64,000 bases of DNA from Nitrospira sp. (GCA_005116835.1 SWDM01000012.1:36454-100453); one strand, 5' to 3'. Shown: positions 33,496-42,963, numbered from the stretch's first letter. Notes: a model not told the origin generated them from the letters alone. Translations and numbers: made by a program.

Positions 33496-34110
33496 ATGGT
33501 CAGATGTCATAATTGCGGATTGTTGGCGATATGGAACAGTGTTGACTTAGTGCTCCTAGAAGCTCCCGAACACTTCAGGCGGGAGGGCGAATTAGTAAAT
33601 CATCATAACAGCATGAATACGTGCGCTCCCAAATGCTTTATCAGGAAAGCAGATCTAGAGAATGAGGTTTTGACAGATCATGAGCTTAAGCACCTATTTA
33701 ATCTCAGTGATGGCATCAAGCGTGTCATACAGCAGGAACGGTCGTGTGATGGATTTACTCCTTGGCTGCAAGGGTTCCATCCAAAGGAGCACACGGAAAT
33801 GTTATTAAACCAAGAAACTCTAGAGCGTCAAAGACGCTCTGCCAACCGTAGTTTGATGGTTGCTACTCTGGCAGCAGTGGGTACAGTTATCGGCGTAGTG
33901 GTTGGTGCATTTATTAACAACAATTCAGCTCATCTTGGAGCAGAGGCCACAATAAAAGCTGCCCAAATGCAAATAGAGGCTCAGATGGAGAGGAGTAGGC
34001 AGGCACAACCGATCAATGTCACCATCCAGATGCCAGAAATAAAACAACCTATTGCAGCGCAACCAATTCCTCCAAAGATCACACATGGTCAGAAACCCCC
34101 GCAGCCATAG
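33496..34110 (+). CDS. Hypothetical Cys-rich, single-TM protein; 3' end probably altered by an IS fragment
   Basis: CHNCG...CAPKC N-terminus and TM helix MVATLAAVGTVIGVVVGAFI. AT-rich codon usage; the last 30 nt overlap the transposase fragment. Confidence 0.4.
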   Translation: MVRCHNCGLLAIWNSVDLVLLEAPEHFRREGELVNHHNSMNTCAPKCFIRKADLENEVLTDHELKHLFNLSDGIKRVIQQERSCDGFTPWLQGFHPKEHTEMLLNQETLERQRRSANRSLMVATLAAVGTVIGVVVGAFINNNSAHLGAEATIKAAQMQIEAQMERSRQAQPINVTIQMPEIKQPIAAQPIPPKITHGQKPPQP

Positions 34111-34381
34111 CTGGAGTTACTCTCAGGGCCTGATTGATTCGCGCAAAGTTGTACCGCATGAATGTGATATTCAGAAAATGAATGTGGTTCGCTACTTTCT
34201 TGGAGTGCGCATTCGTGAGGCGGGTAAAGCGCCGGTTCATCATGCGGATGGTGAGATTCATACGCTCCGCATAGCTGGTGGAAACGTGCTGGCTATCGGG
34301 GTTGCCCATAATTCGATGTGTGCGAGTTCCGCAGCATTCAGCCGCGGACGTCCAAGATGGGGTCAGTTCTTGACTTTGCAC
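34079..34381 (-). pseudogene. DDE transposase C-terminal fragment (IS1-family-like)
   Basis: ...STSYAERMNLTIRMMNRRFTRLTNAHSKKVANHIHFLNITFMRYNFARINQALRVTPAMAAGVSDHV. Only about 75 residues of a protein expected to be over 200 aa. Confidence 0.5.
34359..34381. repeat. Left copy of the 23-bp inverted repeat bracketing the Y1 transposase gene
   Basis: ggggtcagttcttgactttgcac is the reverse complement (22 of 23 nt) of 35331-35353. Confidence 0.7.
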
Positions 34382-35305
34382 GTTTGGAACGCTTGGATTT
34401 GTGCCGGAGTGAGTTGGCGGTCCTCCACGTCGCGCTGAATTTTCGAGATACGCGAAGGCGAAATGCGAAAGCGAATGGCCACCGTCTGCAACGGTTCATT
34501 CGCCGCGCGCCGTAACAGATGGACAGCGGTTTGGTAGGCCTCGCGATGTGAGCGATCGAGAAGGGCGCCCAAACGGACTCGATAAGCGGCGGCGACCTGC
34601 TTGAGCACCTCGTCGGCAGAAAGTCGGGTAGGACGGCCCTGTGCTGACGGGACATTCACCAGAGACTTGCCGCGCACCACGCGGTCGATCCGCTCCAGAA
34701 ATTCTGGACTGCCAAGGTAAATCTGACCGATTACGTCTCTCCACGGCGAGGGTTGATTCGCTCCGTCCGCGACGAATCGGCGGTAGGCCGCTTGTGCTGT
34801 TGAGGCTGAGTGATCGAAGAGGGTGAGCAACGACGGCACATCGAGCCAGTCCGGTATCTCCTGCAATCCGGCTGTTGCGCGATAGCTGCTCCACACCCAC
34901 TCGCTCGTGTCTCCTACGAGTCCGGCCCGCACAGGATTCAACACAACATAGCGACACAGCTCAAGCAGGTAGCTCTCCTTTTCCACCAACAGACTTTTGA
35001 AGCGGCCCTGCAGGAGATGGCCGACCCGCCTGATGCCGACGATTGAACCATTGCGTATAGGTGCCATGGAGTCGTTTCAGACCACGGCTTAGGTTGGGCT
35101 CGGGGGTTTCTATTACCAGGTGATAGTGATTTCCCATCAAGCAGTAGACGTAACAGCGCCACTGCTGTTGCTGCACTTCACGGCCCAGGAGCCAGAGGAA
35201 GTGGCGGCGGTCCCCATCATCCAGAAAAATGGCTTGTTGCGCATTGCCTCGGGCGGTGACGTGATAGAGTGCGCCGGGAAATTCCAAGCGAAGAGGACGA
35301 GCCAT
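34363..35305 (-). pseudogene. HUH/Y1 (IS200-like, RAYT-type) transposase with DnaA-C-like HTH tail, frameshifted
   Basis: LRLEFPGALYHVTARGN...GNHYHLVIET...TQWFNRRHQ | RVGHLLQGRFKSLLVEKESYLLEL...NPVRAGL. The two frames join with one extra G in caGGcgggtc on the minus strand (about 35029-35034). Confidence 0.75.
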
Positions 35306-35330
35306 GAGGTGGGTCGATAGGTGCGGTGGG

Positions 35331-35353
35331 GTGCAAAGTCAAGAACCGACCCC
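35331..35353. repeat. Right copy of the 23-bp inverted repeat bracketing the Y1 transposase gene
   Basis: gtgcaaagtcaagaaccgacccc. Its 3' part plus the following gtgttttc recurs as a direct repeat at 36309-36326. Confidence 0.7.
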
Positions 35354-35361
35354 GTGTTTTC

Positions 35362-36308
35362 TTGCGACATTTTAAAAAAAGCCGCGGTGTTCTTTGCCAA
35401 GGAGTCGCGGTGAAGTACCGGTTCATGCAGACGCATCAGTGGGAGTTTCGTGTGACGCGAATGTGTCAGGTACTTCGGGTTAGCCGGAGTGGGTTCTATG
35501 CCTGGCAGCATCAGGGGGGCGTGTGCACGGGCGCAGGCGAATCAAGCGCTCATAGATCGGATGCGGGTGCTTCATCAGCAGACGCGGGCTGCCTACGGAG
35601 CGCGCAAGATGTGGCAACTGCTGACGCGCGAAGGCCTGGTCTGTGGGCGACACCGCGTGGCGCGACTGCGGCGGCTGGCCGGCATTGTGGCGTTGCGCCG
35701 CCAGCGCTATATTCGCACCGTGCAGGTGCGCCAGCACGAGACGCCACCGATCCTGAATCGTCTTGACCAGCAGTTTACCGTGTCGGCTAAGAATCGGGTA
35801 TGGGCCGGAGATCTGACGTTCGTGCCGACCCGCACGGGCTGGCTCACCGTGGCAGTGTTACTGGATCTCTACTCGCGGCGGGTCGTGGGGTGGGCCATGA
35901 GTCCGCGCCAAACGCTCTCAGTCGTCGTAGAGGTGTGGTGGATGGCCTGGCGGCGGCGCCACCCAGCACCGGGACTGATACATCATAGCGACCAAGGCAA
36001 TCAGTATCGTGTGACGCTGTATCAGACGCTCTTAGCCCGTCGCGGGGTGGTCGTCAGCATGAGTCGGAAGGGCAACTGTTATGACAATGCTCCCGTGGAA
36101 AGCTTCTTCAGTTCGCTGAAGAACGAGTTGGTGCACCATCGGCAGTTTCAGAATCAGGCGGAGGCCCAGGTGGCGATTGTGGAGTATATTGAACGGTTCT
36201 ATAACCGGCAGCGCTTGCATCAGGCGCTGGGCTATCGCAGTCCAGAAGAGTTCGAGCGGCAGGAGCCTGACTCTCAATTCACGTGTCTGTTATTCCGGGG
36301 CCACCTCA
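35362..36308 (+). mobile_element. IS3-family remnant: orfA reduced to its last 15 codons, orfB frameshifted
   Basis: DILKKAAVFFAKESR(stop) with an A7G slippery run at 35374-35381. orfB has ...VTRMCQVLRVSRSGFYAW | ...ARAQANQALIDRM...DLTFV...HSDQGNQY...NCYDNAPVESFF (DDE). The frame break is in the G6 run at 35514-35519. Confidence 0.75.
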
Positions 36309-36428
36309 AACTGACCCCGTGTTTTCGCACCGTAAACGGAGAGGGTCTAGCTTATATCATACCGAGCAATCCTGAAAAGACTTCCGCCCGTGTGTCTCAC
36401 AATAACTTTAACCAGTAAGGAGTCGAAA

Positions 36429-36680
36429 ATGACACCAATGCTAGACGGCAATAGTGCAACGGTCGAGGATATTCATCAAGCCCTAGGGAATCAGAGTATG
36501 TCTCCCGTGTGGAGAAGCAGCATGACAAGTTTTTACACGATGCCAGAATTGACAAATTGGGTTACTCAAGGATTAACCCGGCTTGGGGTTAACGCGGATC
36601 GTGCAAAGGTTTCTTTCATCATCGGGGCTGATCAAAGTGGGAAGCCATGGTATGGCGCGCTAATTTTTTGGTTGGGGTAA
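36429..36680 (+). CDS. Hypothetical small protein
   Basis: AAGGAG lies 6 nt upstream of ATG 36429. 83 aa, AT-rich. No family recognised. Confidence 0.4.
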   Translation: MTPMLDGNSATVEDIHQALGNQSMSPVWRSSMTSFYTMPELTNWVTQGLTRLGVNADRAKVSFIIGADQSGKPWYGALIFWLG

Positions 36681-36786
36681 TTATTGGGGGTAACGTGTTT
36701 CAGAAATAAGACTGCATCGAGCAATTTAAGTAAGGTACTGGCTTCATTGTCTCTACGATGAGGTGCATGGGTTGCACCATCTATCC

Positions 36787-38307
36787 TCACTTTGGCAATG
36801 AAACTCTCATTTCCGCCGTGACCCCTATCTGATTCGCTTCCGCAGTGCCATTTGAGGGAATAACTGACGTCTTCACGATATCGGGGTTGATCCGATGCTC
36901 TCTGAGCGCCGCTTGGATTCTAATAAGCCGAGTTGTTGCCATTGCCACATTTTCTTGGCCATAAGCCACCAGGCGGATCTCTACAATATTTTCAGGCTTC
37001 AGGGATTGAAGAAACGTGTTCAGCGGTTTCGGCGGTCGATCTTCTTCATTCTGATAGTCTAATCGTATGGACTGTTTTTTTGTAGGCCTCAGCGCTAGAT
37101 GTTTGGATGCGATATAGCCCGTCATGCCATTTTTACGCCGGGCTAAAGTCCACTCAGCGGCCTCACTAGGAGGAGGTAAGAATGCGTCTAGCTCGACGCC
37201 TCGATTGAAGGTTGCAAGGACTTGCCCACTTGAGGATGCCGATTGTCTGAACTTTACCGCGTCACCTGCGACCATGACCTGCCGGAAAGACTCTTGCAGT
37301 GATGCCAAGGACCGACTTCTATTTTTACCAGACCGAGCTTTTTCCGAATAATATCCGGCGGGATATGAGTCGATATATGTTTTATACTGATCTGGCCCAG
37401 CCGTAGAGGAATCTATTGTGTCCCATACTTTTTTTTCTTCATTAAATGTTTGAATGGTTGGCGAGAAATAAAACTCTGCACCGCCCTTATTAAGGTATAT
37501 GGGGTCTTGTTTCTGGTCATCGGAGACACCTTCGTTAAGTCGCTTGAAATACTTTGAAACATTACCGAATGTCTTGGCAATTGGCTCATTCTTTAGCTTC
37601 ATGGATTCTGCTAGCGCTTCAGCGTATGGGCTGTTATTTCTATTGCCATCTTTAGCCTTCTGGCCTACGTCTGCGGAGGTAGCAAAGGAAATGTCGGGTG
37701 GTCCTTTGAAGCGTATCCCTGCCGTGACCTCTACAATCTCACTCTTTCCAAGAGTGGGAAGCTTCCCTAAACCTGGATCCCTACACGCATCCAGAATAAC
37801 AATGTGATATACGTCTGGCATTGCTGCTAGGGCATCAGAGAGTAGATCCATCGGGAGGAGCTCTTCTCTGATATCCCGGCTATATAGTGCCATTCCATCA
37901 TAGGGAACGAGATAATCACTGCCGCTATATGAAAGGCCATGTCCGGCAAAGTAGATTAGACTTGTACCGCCTGTTTGTTTCACATGCAGAACATAGTCAT
38001 ACAAAACCCTCTTAAATGTCTGACGAGTTAACGGTGTTTGATCGCTTTTTGGAAAAACGTCAAAGCCAAGGCCTTGAAGAACGGTGGTGATCAACTGCAC
38101 ATCTTTCGTTGCATTAGGTAAGCGAGGGAATGTGGCTTCACCGTAGGTCGAGATACCAATCACTAGGGCTGATCGCGGAGCAAGTTGCGCACCGTCCATG
38201 CCCTTGAAGTAGAATTCTTCTTCAGCGACGGCGACACCTAGTATCCCAATACCCCAGGTACACGCCATAGCTACTTCGAATACGGCCTTTCCCAATAAAT
38301 TGAACAT
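36787..38307 (-). CDS. Caspase-family (peptidase C14) protein with N-terminal signal/anchor and SH3b-like C-terminal region
   Basis: Catalytic dyad contexts IYFAGHGLS and IVILDACRD. Hydrophobic N-terminus, then a later ...GDAVKFRQSASSSGQVLATFNRGVELD...MTGYIASKHL SH3b-like segment. Confidence 0.8.
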   Translation of the reverse strand: MFNLLGKAVFEVAMACTWGIGILGVAVAEEEFYFKGMDGAQLAPRSALVIGISTYGEATFPRLPNATKDVQLITTVLQGLGFDVFPKSDQTPLTRQTFKRVLYDYVLHVKQTGGTSLIYFAGHGLSYSGSDYLVPYDGMALYSRDIREELLPMDLLSDALAAMPDVYHIVILDACRDPGLGKLPTLGKSEIVEVTAGIRFKGPPDISFATSADVGQKAKDGNRNNSPYAEALAESMKLKNEPIAKTFGNVSKYFKRLNEGVSDDQKQDPIYLNKGGAEFYFSPTIQTFNEEKKVWDTIDSSTAGPDQYKTYIDSYPAGYYSEKARSGKNRSRSLASLQESFRQVMVAGDAVKFRQSASSSGQVLATFNRGVELDAFLPPPSEAAEWTLARRKNGMTGYIASKHLALRPTKKQSIRLDYQNEEDRPPKPLNTFLQSLKPENIVEIRLVAYGQENVAMATTRLIRIQAALREHRINPDIVKTSVIPSNGTAEANQIGVTAEMRVSLPK

Positions 38308-38319
38308 GGAAAGCCTCCA

Positions 38320-39330
38320 CTAATCTTTGGGATAAAGCTGACGTTGTTGATTGAGTAAATCTCGGAAGCCGCTAAAACGCTTGGCACCGAGAAGCGTATC
38401 GATGCTTCGGAGTCGTTGACCATTATTCGGGCGGCTCCGATAAGCATCTTTCATCGCTTGCTTATCTGTTGGAGAAAGATCGGGGGGTTGCACAATACTG
38501 CAATGTTCAGGGTCACCATCAGTAAACATCGCTGGCGGAAAGGAATAGTGCATGATAGAGCGATTGTCGTATGCGGTATATGTGTAGGCATGTTGACCAG
38601 TGCTTAACACTTCATCCTTCAACCGTTCCATGTTGAAGTGCATGGATTTTTTCTTTTCCTCCAATGTAGACCCAGGCCATTGATAAGACGTCAGTATTTT
38701 GTCCCAGTTCCATTTTGTGCATGGACTCGCTGGGCTTTGATGCTCATGATGGAACCCAACGGCATGTCCAGTCTCATGTTCAGTGAGTTCCTTGATTGTT
38801 TGATCATCGGGCACCGGGCGTGTATCGAAGTCGAGGTTCATACTGTTTTCAGGAAAAACGGCATCGCTCATCGTTCCGATTTGAGACCAATGGCCTCCGC
38901 CACGGACAAATCCAATCCTGATATTGTAATGTGTAATACCATCGCACTCTTTGAAAGTTTGCGGCCGACCATTCGATGGGTCGATTTGACCTCCAAAGGC
39001 AAACGTCACATTCCCTTGGCTCGCAGCTGACCACTCCATCATAGCTGCCGCAATCTTAGTGCGAAGCTCAACAGGACCTTTGTTGAAGCAAACCGTTATC
39101 TGAGCTGGAATCGGCCAGATAAATGCGTTCACAAGTACGCCACGAGTTTGTGCATCCCCTTCAGTAATATAGGCCCTGTTGAAACTTTTCACTGATTCAG
39201 GAATTTCAGGGCTTGTTAGGTCGTGCATAAGACCGGGGAGGTCATGTGCGAAACTCGTCGCACTAGAAAACGTTGTTGCCGCGAATATCATAAGACAAGG
39301 GAGCAACAAGGAAAGTCGTAGGGCATTCAT
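38320..39330 (-). CDS. Astacin-like (M12A) zinc metalloprotease, secreted
   Basis: HETGHAVGFHHEHQ (HExxHxxGxxHE) plus the SIMHY Met-turn. Signal peptide MNALRLSLLLPCLMIFAATTFSSATSFA. Confidence 0.8.
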   Translation of the reverse strand: MNALRLSLLLPCLMIFAATTFSSATSFAHDLPGLMHDLTSPEIPESVKSFNRAYITEGDAQTRGVLVNAFIWPIPAQITVCFNKGPVELRTKIAAAMMEWSAASQGNVTFAFGGQIDPSNGRPQTFKECDGITHYNIRIGFVRGGGHWSQIGTMSDAVFPENSMNLDFDTRPVPDDQTIKELTEHETGHAVGFHHEHQSPASPCTKWNWDKILTSYQWPGSTLEEKKKSMHFNMERLKDEVLSTGQHAYTYTAYDNRSIMHYSFPPAMFTDGDPEHCSIVQPPDLSPTDKQAMKDAYRSRPNNGQRLRSIDTLLGAKRFSGFRDLLNQQRQLYPKD

Positions 39331-39564
39331 TACAGGTCTCCTTCTTTACATGGACACTTCGGGTAGTACTGTCCACATGGGAACAATGTGCGTTTCCTTA
39401 TCAATAACTACAACTGGGCTTGTAAGCCCGCATCGCAAGGATGGGACACAGAACGAGGAACCCAGATTCTCTGGGCCGTCAGTTATGGTATGCGTGTCTC
39501 TGAGTATGCAGGGCGCCTCTGGGTGCTTGACATTCAAGACTGTTGCTTTCTTTCACTTACCTGC

Positions 39565-41274
39565 CTAGGGAACCGTAGCTGATAAATTCCTGGCCTTCTG
39601 TTCGGCAATTTCTTGTTCCAATTTCATGATCTTTAGACGCTGTATCAGTAGTTGCTCCTGCGTGCCGAGACTTTCCAGTTCCACTTCCGATGAAGTGGCG
39701 GTACCGGTACGTACAGCGTCGAGCCGTTGTTGATCACGAATTAACTGCAACTGAGCAGACACCAAGGCCTGCTGTAACTCTGCTTCCGTCTTTGCAGCCG
39801 TGGCATTGGCTTGCACCTTTGAAAGAGCCAAATCAGATTTGGCCTTATCAAGGGTTACTTGTGCTGTCGCTTGCTCAAGCAGCGCCTTGTTTGCCGCAAT
39901 CCGATCATCTCGTTTGTCTTTCTGCAACTGCAGATAAGTTCCAGCTGCATCACGTACAGTCGCGGAGGCCGATTCTGCCTTCGACTTTGCTCGGAATGTT
40001 AGTTTGCTCGGAGTCCCCGTGGCTCCATTAAATGCCAATTCAATTGAGTTCTCGTCAAATACTATGTTGTCTAAATTGATTGAGCCGATTGGGCCAAATT
40101 GCGGAATTTGCGTTGACTTTTCAAGCAGCAATTCCGCCTGATTCGACGAACTCCGATCATGCTTGAAATGAAGTTTGGCAACAGCGGCCACAGGGATTCG
40201 ATAGGCGATGCCGATCTTCTTGGAATCTGGGCCTATTGCCCCTTGGTTTATATCGATGGCCCGGCCCTTAGGAATCTCAAGAGTCATTATGACTACCGGT
40301 AGGTTTTCTTCTTTGAAATCAAGGTTTCCGCCAACTATCTTTGAAAGATCATCAGCTGTTATTCCAACGTCCATAGCCAAACCATCATGTGTTATCGCGC
40401 CTTGGTTGTTACGAATAATACTCGGAACAAAATCTTTCGAAGCCACAATGACCAGTTGACCCTTCGCTTCAGCGAGTTCTTTTGTTTTTTGTTGGGTTTG
40501 AGACTCACCTAAGTCTTTCAGCTTTTTCTCAGCTTCCCCCAGTTCCTTTCGATAGGCATTGACTTCAGTAAGCAAGTTATCTCTATCTTTTGGGGTACCC
40601 AATTTTTCATAGATTACAGTTAAATCCATGAAAGCCTTTATCCGGCGATCCATCTCTCCGATGTGAAGTTCGGCCGCTGCCCTTTCGTCATCCTTTAATT
40701 TTTCAGCTTCTAACTTACTTTTCGCGGTGCGTATTCTATCTAACGCTAGCTTGATCTGTTCACATGGATCCGGGGGTGGTGTGGATGACTCGGTAGTTGC
40801 TGGTACGGTTGAGAGTGGCGGGATAGATCCTGGCGCGCCTGGGAGAGCAATTGCCCTGGCAATACTGGCAGCAGCGGTACCTGCATTACGAATAACCGCT
40901 CCTGTCTGATCGGCGATTGAAGCATTCACACTAGTAAGCAGGCCAGCTTCAGATAACTGAAACTCGGTATTGGCCACCTTGGTTAACGCATTTAACCGTT
41001 GATAGTCGATGGTATAGGCCTCGGCACCAATGAGCGATTCCGTAAAAGATGCACTGACCTTCGTATCGAGTTTACCCTTGCCACTAGTTTGGTCGACGGT
41101 GCACCCTGTAATCTCATAGATTGCCTTGACCGCAAACTGCTTCGCCGGTAAGCGATAGGTTAAGCCTGACGGAGTATTAGTTTGACTATCGAGTCTTACG
41201 CTTTGAAGCGATGTACAGCCAGGGATCACAATGCAGCATAGCCCAGCAGTTACCAACATAGTTTTTCCGCTCAT
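39565..41274 (-). CDS. Large coiled-coil lipoprotein, unknown function
   Basis: AAGGAG upstream of ATG 41274, then MSGKTMLVTAGLCCIVIPGC with a lipobox. Beta-rich domains are interrupted by long K/E/Q/A-rich heptad segments. The 651-aa track ORF is trimmed. Confidence 0.7.
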   Translation of the reverse strand: MSGKTMLVTAGLCCIVIPGCTSLQSVRLDSQTNTPSGLTYRLPAKQFAVKAIYEITGCTVDQTSGKGKLDTKVSASFTESLIGAEAYTIDYQRLNALTKVANTEFQLSEAGLLTSVNASIADQTGAVIRNAGTAAASIARAIALPGAPGSIPPLSTVPATTESSTPPPDPCEQIKLALDRIRTAKSKLEAEKLKDDERAAAELHIGEMDRRIKAFMDLTVIYEKLGTPKDRDNLLTEVNAYRKELGEAEKKLKDLGESQTQQKTKELAEAKGQLVIVASKDFVPSIIRNNQGAITHDGLAMDVGITADDLSKIVGGNLDFKEENLPVVIMTLEIPKGRAIDINQGAIGPDSKKIGIAYRIPVAAVAKLHFKHDRSSSNQAELLLEKSTQIPQFGPIGSINLDNIVFDENSIELAFNGATGTPSKLTFRAKSKAESASATVRDAAGTYLQLQKDKRDDRIAANKALLEQATAQVTLDKAKSDLALSKVQANATAAKTEAELQQALVSAQLQLIRDQQRLDAVRTGTATSSEVELESLGTQEQLLIQRLKIMKLEQEIAEQKARNLSATVP

Positions 41275-41526
41275 TTGCTTCACTCCTTTATCTCTGAGCT
41301 GTTGGGGCGATGAAAAGGGGTCGAGAGTCTTTGTTTGGGAATGATGGCTTGTAACGCGGGACATGGCCACCAGAGTTTCGTAGAGGTTCTTGGCAAAGAT
41401 GGCGTTGCTGATGTGCCATGAGGGATTGGATATGCCAATCATTCCCTTGTGACATCGCATCCTGCATGAGGAGCTCCTACTCACGTCTAGTGCGCGCGAT
41501 AGTCCTGCTGTGTTGCTCATGCTTTG

Positions 41527-41805
41527 CTATTCCTTCGTCGCCGTACTCTTGCGAGTCCACGGCACTTGTTGACGCAGTATCTTTTGGGCTCCGACGAGGT
41601 TGGGGGTCTGATCGTATTTCAGTGTTTTCAGCCGGGCCTGGCTGCCTTCCTTCAACTGGGGGAACGTCGGTTTTCTGCTCCGACGGCGTTGAGTTGACGG
41701 TCGACCTAGGCTCGGAGCACTGCCAGTATCGAAGAGTATTCGAAGCGTTGTGATTGATGATCGCGTGGGATGTGGAAGGGTATCAGGAATCATTTCGTAT
41801 TCCAT
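41527..41805 (-). CDS. Questionable hypothetical ORF
   Basis: 92-aa ORF with basic, low-complexity composition. No RBS seen. Confidence 0.2.
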   Translation of the reverse strand: MEYEMIPDTLPHPTRSSITTLRILFDTGSAPSLGRPSTQRRRSRKPTFPQLKEGSQARLKTLKYDQTPNLVGAQKILRQQVPWTRKSTATKE

Positions 41806-41951
41806 GATGCGCGGGACGATAGCACAAGTCGTTAAAGATTCCTATCCAAACTGTTAGGTCTCGTTAAATATTTTCATATTATTCAAAGGAGTGATATTTC
41901 GCAGTTAAGCAAATTGCAGGCCTCGCCTGAAAGTATTCATTCATGGCTCTG

Positions 41952-42074
41952 GCAGGATGCTGAAAAAGTTCGCCAGCATCGTTCTCGTATCGCTTCCAAA
42001 GACCGTGAAACGCGAAACGCGAGGATCAACCTCGGAGCTGCGGCCTTACTGGACAGCCTTTTTGAACATCCTGC
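41952..42074 (+). repeat. PE copy E (type 2 core)
   Basis: gcaggatgctgaaaaagttcgccagc...ccgtgaaacgcgaaacgcgagg...cctcggagctgcggcc...cctttttgaacatcctgc. Confidence 0.8.
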
Positions 42075-42427
42075 GGCTTTGTTGATGTCGACGCCAATAT
42101 GGAAGGTTCCACTGGCATTTAGTGCATCAACTGAGTTTTTCGCAGCCTGATGGATATGTAATATCAGAGCCTCACACGACGAGCATTAACTCTGATGTGA
42201 ATCGTTTTTGATTCGCCGATGAATCTAAATTGATTCATCGCGCTGAATGATTATGATGGTGGAGGATGGGTAAGTGAGGGGAGTGTATAACGAGTTCATG
42301 GGGTGTCCCGGGCTCCGGTTTAACCCGCATAACTCATGGCTTTTCGCCGCGAAATGACGGAGTGGCGTAGGACTCGCTTGAGTCAGGTATTGGAAGTTTC
42401 GGTAGAAGTCTTCGTGAGTTAAACGGG

Positions 42428-42697
42428 CTAGGCGCGGTGGGTTTCGATGCGGTCCATGCGAGCTTTGAGGGTGGAAATATCAGTTTCGAGTGTCCGAATC
42501 CGTTGGTCGAGCTGTGAGAATGAGAGTCGGATCAGAGCACGCAGCTCTTTGAATTCGTCTCTGAATTCATCCCGTAGCTCCTGTAATTCACGGCGTATCC
42601 CTGAATGGCCCTCCGCAATTTGTCGGATGTCGCTACGAAGGGCTTCAGACACCACTCCGAAGTGTCGTTTGATTTCTTCAACCTGGGCATCATTCAT
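42428..42697 (-). CDS. Small coiled-coil protein, unknown function
   Basis: 89 aa with continuous heptad-like R/E/L pattern. Confidence 0.45.
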   Translation of the reverse strand: MNDAQVEEIKRHFGVVSEALRSDIRQIAEGHSGIRRELQELRDEFRDEFKELRALIRLSFSQLDQRIRTLETDISTLKARMDRIETHRA

Positions 42698-42963
42698 AGG
42701 CTGCTTGTATAGCCTGATCGAACAGAAAATGCAACGCGACTCTTCGAGATTGAAAGGGAATGATTGTTACCGAGAGGTGCACAGGAGGTGGGTGGCATCT
42801 GTTGCGGTCCAGAGAGTTCGAAGGAATCCCTATTGCGTGCCTTGCCGATTTTCTAAGGATGACCCCGTCTGAATGATCGAGTGCTGGAATCGGCCTCACG
42901 CCTGTTAGCTGGCTCAATTTTGAAGAAGCATTAACGTCTGCTCTTGTGGTATCAGTTCACTCT

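What the first reader, a model, noticed from the sequence alone, without database searches (positions are those of the whole stretch)
36787..41274. Secreted lipoprotein, astacin and caspase trio on an AT-rich island
Three consecutive minus-strand genes encode:
- A 569-aa lipoprotein with long coiled coils.
- An astacin-type metalloprotease with both family signatures (HExxHxxGxxHE and the SxMHY Met-turn) and a signal peptide.
- A C14 caspase-fold protease with an intact His/Cys dyad, an N-terminal signal or anchor and an SH3b-like domain.

Only 12 nt separate the astacin and caspase genes. To my knowledge astacins are sparse in bacteria. I do not recognise a paired extracytoplasmic astacin and caspase next to a large coiled-coil lipoprotein as a described system.

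Possible roles are a surface proteolytic cascade (zymogen activation), an inter-bacterial or anti-predator effector module, or processing of the lipoprotein itself.
Basis: partly seen in the sequence, partly recalled or inferred. Interest (0 to 1): 0.7.

Follow-up and report, generated by a model that had tools for sequence, protein, structure and literature searches.

The report
Secreted astacin–caspase-fold protease gene pair
Two of the three genes, a secreted astacin-type zinc protease and a secreted caspase-fold protease predicted to cut after Arg/Lys, form a gene pair conserved across several bacterial groups, probably a zymogen-activation cascade, whereas the lipoprotein next to them is an unrelated mobile accessory gene.

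Summary
All three minus-strand genes exist as described, on a roughly 6.4-kb low-GC stretch of a Nitrospira MAG contig beside IS elements.

**The trio is not a system.**
- No lipoprotein homologue lies in any of 165 loci that encode astacin relatives.
- No astacin or caspase lies in seven other lipoprotein contexts.

**The astacin–caspase pair is conserved.**
- The ten closest astacin relatives all have a C14 gene directly adjacent, in tandem or divergent orientation. They come from Nitrospira-like contigs and alpha-, beta- and delta-proteobacterial MAGs.
- Several more distant astacin lineages carry the pair too.

**The two enzymes.**
- The metalloprotease is a myroilysin-type astacin with signal peptide, 35-residue prosegment, HExxHxxGxxHE and SIMHY. 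Its predicted maturation site is R63|G64.
- The "caspase" has an invariant His/Cys dyad. All three S1-pocket positions are acidic (D69, D173, D220), as in MALT1, so it should cut after Arg/Lys, not Asp.
- Every caspase-paired astacin has Arg or Lys at the predicted P1 position (15/15). Only 46% of unpaired relatives do.

**Reading.** The C14 enzyme is most likely the dedicated convertase of the pro-astacin in the cell envelope. This step is inferred and untested.

The pairing is an undescribed gene neighbourhood built from two known protease families. Interest is moderate.

The parts
38320..39330 (-). Myroilysin-type astacin (M12A-like) zymogen, 336 aa. Signal peptide residues 1-28 (39247-39330). 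Prosegment residues 29-63 (39142-39246), starting with the invariant H29-D30. Catalytic domain residues 64-297 (38440-39141). Conserved C-terminal tail residues 298-336 (38323-38439).
   Evidence: PDB myroilysin matches at 1.9e-17. Mature myroilysin 5zjk residue 1 aligns to G64.
38743..38778 (-). Zinc-binding motif HETGHAVGFHHE (H185, E186, H189, H195 and the family-specific E196).
   Evidence: Invariant in 11 caspase-paired homologues and in alignment A1. Read directly.
38545..38559 (-). Met-turn SIMHY (S258-Y262), which carries the tyrosine zinc ligand.
39139..39144 (-). Predicted maturation site R63|G64. P1 is Arg or Lys in every caspase-paired homologue.
   Evidence: PMC9629494 reports that the mature myroilysin N-terminus is a Gly bound to the family-specific Glu.
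38308..38319 (-). 12-nt spacer containing GGAGG, which implies co-transcription and translational coupling of astacin and caspase.
   Evidence: L095 has the same 12-nt spacing.
36787..38307 (-). Secreted C14 (caspase-fold, paracaspase/orthocaspase-like) cysteine protease, 506 aa. Signal peptide about residues 1-28. C14 domain residues 45-273 (37489-38175). Helical linker residues 285-328. SH3b-like beta domain residues 341-400 (37108-37287). C-terminal alpha/beta domain residues 409-501 (36805-37083).
37783..37941 (-). Catalytic dyad H123 (37939-37941) and C175 (37783-37785). The acidic S1 residues D69, D173 and D220 lie in the same domain.
   Evidence: Invariant in 49 sequences.
39565..41274 (-). 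Outer-membrane-type lipoprotein with coiled coils, 569 aa. It is a neighbour, NOT part of the conserved module. It belongs to a large orphan family found in mobile or accessory DNA.
36500..42900 (.). Low-GC island (48.3% GC against 55.4% elsewhere) carrying the three genes.
34354..36418 (.). Mobile-element block bordering the island. It holds an IS200-like/RAYT-type Y1 transposase (34363-35305, split over two frames) between 28-nt inverted repeats, and an IS3-family transposase (35326-36418).

Best explanation
**The unit.** The functional unit is a two-gene, horizontally mobile cassette, not a trio. I put this at about 0.85.

**What each gene encodes.**
- Gene 1 encodes a Sec-exported pro-astacin of the myroilysin type: signal peptide, then a 35-residue prosegment beginning H29-D30, then the catalytic domain.
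- Gene 2 lies 12 nt downstream and is co-transcribed. It encodes a Sec-exported caspase-fold (C14) cysteine protease. Its S1 pocket is acidic, as in MALT1, metacaspases and orthocaspases, so it should cleave after Arg/Lys.
- Gene 2 also carries an SH3b-like domain and a further C-terminal domain. These probably hold it at the cell envelope.

**Proposed mechanism.** This is inferred, at about 0.35-0.4.
1. In the periplasm or at the cell surface, the C14 enzyme acts as the dedicated convertase of the pro-astacin.
2. It cuts at the conserved (T)R63|G64(V) junction.
3. The new N-terminus folds in and salt-bridges to the family-specific Glu196, as in other astacins.
4. The prosegment leaves the active-site cleft, and the metalloprotease becomes active against its still unknown extracellular or envelope protein substrates.

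**The lipoprotein.** It is a separate accessory gene that shares the same low-GC island.

The confidence value given for this entry (0.4) refers to the full statement, including the inferred direction of the cascade.
For: **Shown**
- The ten astacin relatives with the highest profile scores all have an adjacent C14 gene within 250 nt. Five are tandem and five divergent (plus the tandem window itself). They come from at least four bacterial groups.
- More distant astacin lineages also carry an adjacent C14 gene, in yet other arrangements: L015, L023, L026/L104 and L128.
- Clustering the ORFs of 12 pair loci finds only these two families shared by all.
- Catalytic residues of both enzymes are invariant.
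- Both carry signal-peptide-like N-termini in all orthologues.
- D69, D173 and D220 occupy the positions of MALT1 D365, D462 and E500 and of caspase-7 R233, and are invariant in 49 sequences. The role of these residues is taken from PMC4357240.
- Mature myroilysin (5zjk) starts at the residue aligned to G64, directly after an Arg. [quoted passage not shown]
- P1 is Arg or Lys in 15 of 15 caspase-paired astacins, against 35 of 76 unpaired ones. Fisher p is 4e-5 after removing near-duplicates and 0.0026 for 60%-identity clusters.

**Inferred**
- The direction of the cascade, the envelope localisation, and the role of the SH3b and C-terminal domains.
Against:
- The P1 association loses significance when lineages are collapsed to 45% identity (4/4 against 12/23, p = 0.10), so phylogenetic inertia is not excluded.
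- Myroilysin itself has Arg at P1 but no neighbouring caspase. A basic P1 therefore does not require a C14 partner.
- In L092 the caspase is broken while the astacin is intact.
- Divergent orientation in half the loci shows co-transcription is not required.
- The substrate and physiological role of the activated astacin are unknown.
- The SH3b domain is missing in two orthologues.
Confidence: 0.4

Rival explanations
1. The two are co-regulated but mechanistically independent secreted degradative proteases. They would attack the same external material, such as proteins of competitors, predators, biofilm matrix or envelope, with complementary specificities. Neither would activate the other.
For: - The conserved adjacency is equally expected for co-regulated enzymes.
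- Myroilysin is an abundant secreted elastase (abstracts).
- Many related secreted C14 proteins carry binding domains such as TPR, PG_binding_1, SH3_3 and Sel1 without any astacin.
Against: - It does not explain why the adjacency is so tight and persists through inversion to divergent orientation across groups.
- It does not explain why P1 of the astacin maturation site is basic in all paired members.
Confidence: 0.25
2. The cascade runs in the reverse direction, or both ways. The astacin would process and activate the caspase-fold zymogen, for example in the linker after Cys175 or between its domains. The C14 enzyme would then be the terminal effector at the cell wall.
For: - Many C14 enzymes need cleavage in the p20-p10 linker (general knowledge of caspases and metacaspases).
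- The astacin gene comes first in the tandem arrangement.
Against: - The closest structural relative, MALT1, does not need cleavage for activation (PMC4357240).
- No conserved candidate astacin site was identified in the linker.
- The astacin still needs a convertase for its conserved Arg site.
Confidence: 0.15
3. The coiled-coil lipoprotein would be the anchor, substrate or scaffold of the two proteases, and the three genes would act as one surface system.
For: - The three genes are contiguous, on the same strand and of the same atypical GC and GC3 in this genome.
- One lipoprotein homologue (L011) is followed by a secreted trypsin-like protease.
Against: - 0 of 165 astacin-relative loci contain the lipoprotein.
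- 0 of 7 other lipoprotein contexts contain an astacin or C14 gene, even by HMM search.
- The closest relatives of each component are unlinked.
- A 234-nt gap separates the lipoprotein from the astacin.
Confidence: 0.05
4. The pair is an intracellular conflict or anti-phage system of the caspase type. Candidates are the EACC1-caspase pair, gasdermin-activating proteases, and CRISPR-linked CHAT/PCaspase cascades.
For: - Weak similarity to NCBIfam 'caspase, EACC1-associated type' at 49 bits.
- Weak similarity to a PADLOC caspase model at 23.7 bits.
- The genes lie on a mobile island.
Against: - The scores are far below the cutoff (49 against 140 bits).
- Both proteins have signal peptides.
- No EACC1 transmembrane protein, gasdermin, NTPase or CRISPR gene is conserved nearby.
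- The EACC1 system is defined by a 5' EACC1 gene (PMC7159879), which is absent here.
Confidence: 0.03

Closest known systems
Myroilysin (bacterial M12A astacin of Myroides; PDB 5GWD, 5CZW, 5ZJK) and flavastacin
   Same: - Same catalytic domain (E 1.9e-17).
- HExxHxxGxxHE followed by HQ(S/H)P rather than the animal RxDRD motif.
- SIMHY Met-turn and an N-terminal prosegment.
- The maturation site after an Arg aligns with R63|G64.
   Different: - There is no Cys in the prosegment, so the cysteine switch of myroilysin cannot operate. Instead an invariant H29-D30 sits at the predicted N-terminus of the proenzyme.
- It carries an extra conserved C-terminal tail of about 40 residues.
- It is encoded next to a C14 protease, which the Bacteroidota myroilysin-like genes are not.
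- The hosts are environmental Nitrospira and Proteobacteria rather than animal-associated bacteria.
MALT1 paracaspase, metacaspases and orthocaspases (family C14B)
   Same: - Caspase-hemoglobinase fold (Foldseek 9e-14; profile against MALT1 2e-26).
- His/Cys dyad.
- An acidic S1 triad at the positions of D365, D462 and E500, which predicts Arg/Lys specificity.
   Different: - It is exported by a signal peptide.
- It is fused to a helical linker, an SH3b-like domain and an unassigned alpha/beta domain.
- It has no death, Ig or p10-type accessory domains.
- Its specificity is predicted, not measured.
Extracellular bacterial protease cascades, cited from my own knowledge and not tested here. One is the staphylococcal cascade aureolysin -> SspA -> staphopain B. 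Another is Arg-gingipain, a clan CD caspase-fold enzyme that matures other surface proteins of Porphyromonas.
   Same: - Secreted zymogens are activated in trans by a partner protease encoded nearby.
- In the gingipain case, an Arg-specific caspase-fold enzyme acts as maturase.
   Different: - The protease families and the order differ. Here a C14 enzyme is paired with an astacin.
- The pairing is a minimal two-gene unit spread across several bacterial groups.
- No activity data exist.
EACC1-caspase two-gene conflict system (Kaur et al. 2020, PMC7159879)
   Same: It is a two-gene unit with a caspase-superfamily protease as the second gene. There is weak sequence similarity of the caspase domain.
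   Different: - The partner is a secreted metalloprotease, not the single-TM EACC1 protein.
- The caspase is exported.
- The NCBIfam score of 49 is far below the cutoff of 140.

Membership tests
Astacin family (MEROPS M12A / Pfam PF01400) | Extended zinc motif HExxHxxGxxH | tested here: met
   H185-E-T-G-H189-A-V-G-F-H-H195 is present and is invariant in paired homologues. The definition is taken from PMC9848320.
Astacin family (MEROPS M12A / Pfam PF01400) | Family-specific Glu directly after the third zinc His | tested here: met
   E196 is invariant.
Astacin family (MEROPS M12A / Pfam PF01400) | SIMHY Met-turn with the tyrosine zinc ligand | tested here: met
   S258-I-M260-H-Y262 is present, with S, M and Y invariant.
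Astacin family (MEROPS M12A / Pfam PF01400) | Pfam gathering threshold for PF01400 | tested here: not met
   The window protein scores 21.8 bits against a cutoff of 22.5. Several orthologues carry precomputed PF01400 hits.
Astacin family (MEROPS M12A / Pfam PF01400) | ExxRxDRD continuation of the zinc motif and the FxGD aspartate-switch prosegment, both typical of animal astacins | tested here: not met
   The sequence continues EHQSPASP, and the prosegment lacks FxGD. Myroilysin lacks these features too.
Astacin family (MEROPS M12A / Pfam PF01400) | Significant homology to a structurally characterised member | tested here: met
   Myroilysin 5gwd matches at E 1.9e-17 over residues 60-297.
Astacin family (MEROPS M12A / Pfam PF01400) | Buried mature N-terminus bound to the family-specific Glu after prosegment removal | not testable with these tools
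   Only the aligned cleavage position R63|G64 is available. N-terminal sequencing or a structure is needed.
Myroilysin subgroup | Cysteine-switch latency, in which a prosegment Cys blocks the zinc | tested here: not met
   Prosegment residues 29-63 contain no Cys. H29 and D30 are invariant instead.
Peptidase C14 (caspase-fold) | Pfam PF00656 above threshold, plus the caspase fold | tested here: met
   The protein scores 88.5 bits against a cutoff of 21.4. Foldseek matches MALT1 and caspase-7 with probability 1.0.
Peptidase C14 (caspase-fold) | Catalytic His/Cys dyad | tested here: met
   H123 and C175 are invariant in 49 sequences.
C14A true caspases (Asp-specific) | Basic S1 pocket (Arg87, Gln184 and Arg233 in caspase-7 numbering) | tested here: not met
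   The corresponding positions are D69, D173 and D220. The residue roles are taken from PMC4357240.
C14B (paracaspase/metacaspase/orthocaspase type, Arg/Lys-specific) | Acidic S1 pocket equivalent to MALT1 D365, D462 and E500 | tested here: met
   D69, D173 and D220 are invariant. Actual specificity was not measured.
EACC1-associated caspase system | NCBIfam NF047832 cutoff, plus a 5' EACC1 single-TM partner gene | tested here: not met
   The score is 49 bits against a cutoff of 140. The upstream gene is the astacin.
Bacterial SH3 (SH3b, PF08239) | Pfam threshold | tested here: inconclusive
   The window protein scores 16.4 bits against a cutoff of 27. The orthologues P0057 and P0059 carry the domain. 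The model shows a beta domain at residues 341-400.
Bacterial lipoprotein | Signal peptide ending in a lipobox with an invariant Cys | tested here: met
   The N-terminus reads MSGKTMLVTAGLCCIVIPG-C20-TSL. The Cys is nearly invariant and the homologues have canonical (S/A)(G/A)C.
DUF4831 (lipoprotein family of unknown function) | Pfam threshold | tested here: not met
   The window protein has no hit. One distant family member scores 22.4 bits against a cutoff of 27.

The most novel reading that the evidence does not exclude
The pair would be a previously unrecognised, horizontally mobile extracytoplasmic proteolytic cascade. A caspase-fold, Arg/Lys-specific protease tethered to the cell envelope would be the dedicated pro-protein convertase of a bacterial astacin. 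This would be a bacterial counterpart of animal zymogen cascades, in which astacins such as meprins are activated by trypsin-like enzymes. It might be used as a switchable surface weapon or remodelling device in environmental bacteria such as Nitrospira.
Probability: 0.3. Interest if true: 0.65.

Novelty: new variant of a known kind. Interest (0 to 1): 0.45.

Why it matters
**Function for secreted caspase homologues.** Secreted bacterial caspase homologues are numerous but have no assigned function. A survey of prokaryotic caspase homologues (PMC3501461) could only note possible signal peptides and peptidoglycan-binding domains.

**Origin of bacterial astacins.** Bacterial astacins are regarded as rare, host-associated xenologues (PMC9848320). 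This case differs on two points:
- The myroilysin-like subgroup is common in free-living soil and water bacteria.
- One clade of it is consistently encoded next to a C14 protease.

**A testable substrate.** This would supply the first concrete, testable substrate for an exported caspase-fold enzyme. It would also name a natural activator for a bacterial astacin, which is straightforward to test in vitro.

**Correction of the trio.** The lipoprotein belongs to a separate, large and unannotated family of mobile accessory lipoproteins.

Tried and rejected
- **Trio co-occurrence.** I searched 165 astacin loci and 7 lipoprotein loci with tblastn and HMMs. The lipoprotein is never linked to either protease.
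- **L005 downstream gene.** This 312-aa protein was tested as a possible astacin. It showed no similarity.
- **Fold of the lipoprotein.**
  - The AF2 model has pLDDT 69.
  - Foldseek against PDB gave nothing below E 0.05. The best hits were the adaptor proteins MacA/YbjP and EmrA at TM of about 0.1.
  - Foldseek against viral structures gave only TM of 0.16 or less.
  - Pfam, NCBIfam, PADLOC and PHROGs gave no hits.
  - I rejected any assignment.
- **OmpA-like C-terminal domain of the caspase.** This was my own reading of the sequence. Pfam and PDB profile searches did not support it. The only signal was a weak Pilus_CpaD match in 4 of 10 members.
- **Defence-system reading.** The PADLOC and NCBIfam hits are far below threshold.
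- **NCBIfam 'beta-glucuronidase AbsR1' hit of the astacin.** It scored 64.5 bits against a cutoff of 650. A literature search gave nothing relevant. I treated it as a shared metzincin core.
- **Promoter and terminator scan.** Counts did not differ from shuffled sequence. It therefore gives no evidence on whether the lipoprotein is transcribed separately.
- **Other conserved neighbours of the pair.** A Peripla_BP_6 gene occurs in 3 of 12 loci, which are probably related taxa.
- **Literature on an astacin-caspase pairing.** No description was found.


Full report
**1. What is in the window**

The window matches a 114.5-kb contig of a Nitrospira sp. MAG. The three proteins are NCBI E8D46_04075, E8D46_04070 and the adjacent 'caspase family protein'.

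- caspase, 36787-38307, 506 aa
- astacin-like, 38320-39330, 336 aa
- a long ORF, 39565-41520, whose homology-supported start at 41274 gives a 569-aa lipoprotein

The astacin-caspase gap is 12 nt and holds a GGAGG. The lipoprotein-astacin gap is 234 nt.

All three genes have 47.3-47.7% GC and about 45% GC3. Other genes in the window have 53-61% GC and 55-74% GC3. The low-GC stretch runs from about 36.5 to 42.9 kb. It abuts an IS3-family transposase and an IS200-like/RAYT-type transposase.

**2. The metalloprotease**

- Pfam Astacin falls just below its threshold (21.8 against 22.5 bits).
- The protein matches the solved bacterial astacin myroilysin at 1.9e-17 over residues 60-297.
- The features that define astacins (PMC9848320) are present and invariant among homologues. 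These are HExxHxxGxxH, the family-specific Glu (E196) and SIMHY.
- The animal-type RxDRD and FxGD motifs are absent, as they are in myroilysin.
- After a canonical signal peptide (...ATSFA|H29) comes a 35-residue prosegment. It has no cysteine, so the myroilysin cysteine switch cannot apply. H29-D30 are invariant and could block the zinc. That last point is speculation.
- Mature myroilysin (5zjk) begins at the residue aligned to G64, directly after an Arg. Its N-terminal Gly binds the family-specific Glu (PMC9629494). The predicted maturation site is therefore R63|G64.

**3. The 'caspase'**

- Pfam Peptidase_C14 gives 7e-25.
- A family profile against MALT1 gives 2e-26.
- The AF2 model has pLDDT 86.4 and matches MALT1 by Foldseek at 9e-14.
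- H123 and C175 are invariant.
- The three S1-pocket positions are acidic and invariant in 49 sequences:

| Residue here | Equivalent position | Calls |
|---|---|---|
| D69 | MALT1 D365 | 8, 56 |
| D173 | MALT1 D462 | 8, 56 |
| D220 | caspase-7 R233, which overlies MALT1 E500 | 61 and PMC4357240 |

The enzyme is thus a C14B-type protease, like paracaspases and orthocaspases, predicted to cut after Arg/Lys. It is not an Asp-specific caspase.

All orthologues start with a signal-peptide-like segment. Downstream the model shows three further regions:
- a helical linker
- an SH3b-like beta domain (sub-threshold here, above threshold in two orthologues, deleted in two others)
- an unassigned alpha/beta domain

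**4. Linkage tests**

*Lipoprotein.*
- The word-based search found 29 homologues.
- Seven independent contexts were read:
  1. a 75%-identical relative
  2. Pseudomonas sp. B11D7D
  3. a Tn7-like TniQ/TnsD cargo region
  4. a locus next to RHS genes
  5. a locus followed by a trypsin and then conflict-system-type genes
  6. a locus followed by an unknown 312-aa protein
  7. a Cupriavidus plasmid near an integrase
- None contains an astacin or a C14 gene, even by HMM search.

*Astacin.*
- Two collection scans plus look-ups gave 165 loci.
- None contains the lipoprotein.
- The ten loci with the highest astacin profile scores all have a C14 gene within 250 nt.
- L095, L013, L097 and L098 are tandem, as is L072, whose astacin is truncated by the contig end and so scores lower; L095 has the same 12-nt spacer as the window.
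- L094, L176, L012, L093, L092 and L096 are divergent.
- The titled genome records are alpha-, beta- and delta-proteobacterial MAGs.
- More distant astacin lineages also carry an adjacent C14 gene. These are L015, L023, L026/L104 (astacin then caspase) and L128 (an 811-aa C14 protein followed by the astacin).
- The Bacteroidota myroilysin-like genes do not.
- All-against-all ORF clustering of 12 pair loci finds only these two families shared by all 12.
- The caspase orthologue group is tight. Seven proteins are followed by a drop from 364 to 110 bits.

The conserved unit is therefore the pair. The lipoprotein is a bystander.

**5. Mechanism**

Both products are exported. One is a zymogen with a conserved basic residue at its maturation site. 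The other is predicted to cleave after basic residues.

| Deduplication of astacins | Caspase-paired, Arg/Lys at P1 | Unpaired (adequate flanks), Arg/Lys at P1 | Fisher p |
|---|---|---|---|
| Near-duplicates removed | 15/15 | 35/76 | 4e-5 |
| 60%-identity clusters | 7/7 | 17/45 | 0.0026 |
| 45%-identity clusters | 4/4 | 12/23 | 0.10 |

The signal is suggestive but confounded by shared ancestry.

I therefore favour the C14 enzyme as the convertase of the pro-astacin, at about 0.35-0.4. The rivals are:
- independent co-regulated exoproteases, 0.25
- the reverse direction of activation, 0.15
- an intracellular conflict system, 0.03

Several points count against the favoured model:
- Myroilysin has Arg at P1 without a neighbouring caspase.
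- One locus (L092) has a broken caspase next to an intact astacin.
- No biochemical data exist.

**6. The lipoprotein**

- The lipobox Cys is conserved.
- The AF2 model has pLDDT 69. It shows beta-rich regions (37-119 and 275-429), a helical hairpin (172-272) and a helix of about 130 residues (432-565).
- No structural match is significant in PDB or in viral libraries.
- A full profile search shows the family is large: 1,398 representatives at E of 1e-3 or better, and 134 at 1e-30 or better.
- It has no Pfam model. One member scores weakly against DUF4831.
- It recurs in accessory or mobile DNA with no conserved partner. Its function remains unknown.

**7. Comparison with known systems and novelty**

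Each protein belongs to a known family, the myroilysin-type M12A astacins and the C14B-type caspase-fold proteases. I found no description of a conserved astacin-caspase neighbourhood.

Functionally it resembles extracellular bacterial protease cascades, which I cite from my own knowledge:
- the staphylococcal cascade aureolysin -> SspA -> staphopain B
- Arg-gingipain acting as a maturase

It is not an EACC1-caspase system.

I rate it a new variant of a known kind, with interest 0.45.

Noticed in passing
window 34354-35358: An IS200-like Y1 transposase gene is split over two overlapping frames (34961-35305 and 34363-35067). It is bracketed by 28-nt inverted repeats (34354-34381 and 35331-35358, 89% complementary). 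The layout looks like a REP-associated tyrosine transposase (RAYT), possibly inactivated by a frameshift.
   Followed up: partly
window 35326-36418: An IS3-family transposase (rve and HTH_21 domains) has an upstream overlapping frame typical of a programmed frameshift. An 18-nt direct repeat (35344-35361 and 36309-36326) lies near its ends. It sits directly next to the low-GC island.
   Followed up: partly
window 33496-34110: A 204-aa ORF with a predicted transmembrane stretch has 46% GC, like the island genes, but lies on the far side of the two IS elements. The island may have been split by the insertions.
   Followed up: no
L011 1344-9867 (Logan SRR29850206): A lipoprotein homologue is followed by a secreted trypsin-like protease. 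After it come BP74_N, CTD6, MC2, AAA_23 and PLDc_2 genes, which are domains of the kind described in bacterial conflict systems. This is the only other lipoprotein context with a protease next to it.
   Followed up: partly
L008 396-4870 (ENA ERZ28655853): A lipoprotein homologue lies immediately after TniQ and TnsD-like genes. It appears to be cargo of a Tn7-like transposon.
   Followed up: no
L092 4642-12086: An astacin-caspase pair has its caspase broken into at least three frames. It lies between two Transposase_mut (IS256-type) genes. The pair looks mobile and is decaying in this locus.
   Followed up: partly
L128 5325-8825 (Hyphomicrobiales MAG): An 811-aa protein with a C-terminal C14 domain is followed 70 nt later by an astacin relative whose Met-turn reads SVMKY instead of SIMHY. 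This is an independent arrangement of the same two families.
   Followed up: partly
L012, L093, L176: A periplasmic-binding-protein gene (Peripla_BP_6/ANF_receptor) lies directly after the astacin in three of twelve pair loci.
   Followed up: partly
collection scans: Myroilysin-like astacin relatives are far more common in free-living bacteria than the astacin review implies. Many sit near or below the Pfam Astacin threshold.
   Followed up: partly
window 39565-41520: The NCBI record calls the lipoprotein as 625 aa, and the longest ORF is 651 aa. Homologues support the 569-aa start at 41274, just before the lipobox.
   Followed up: yes
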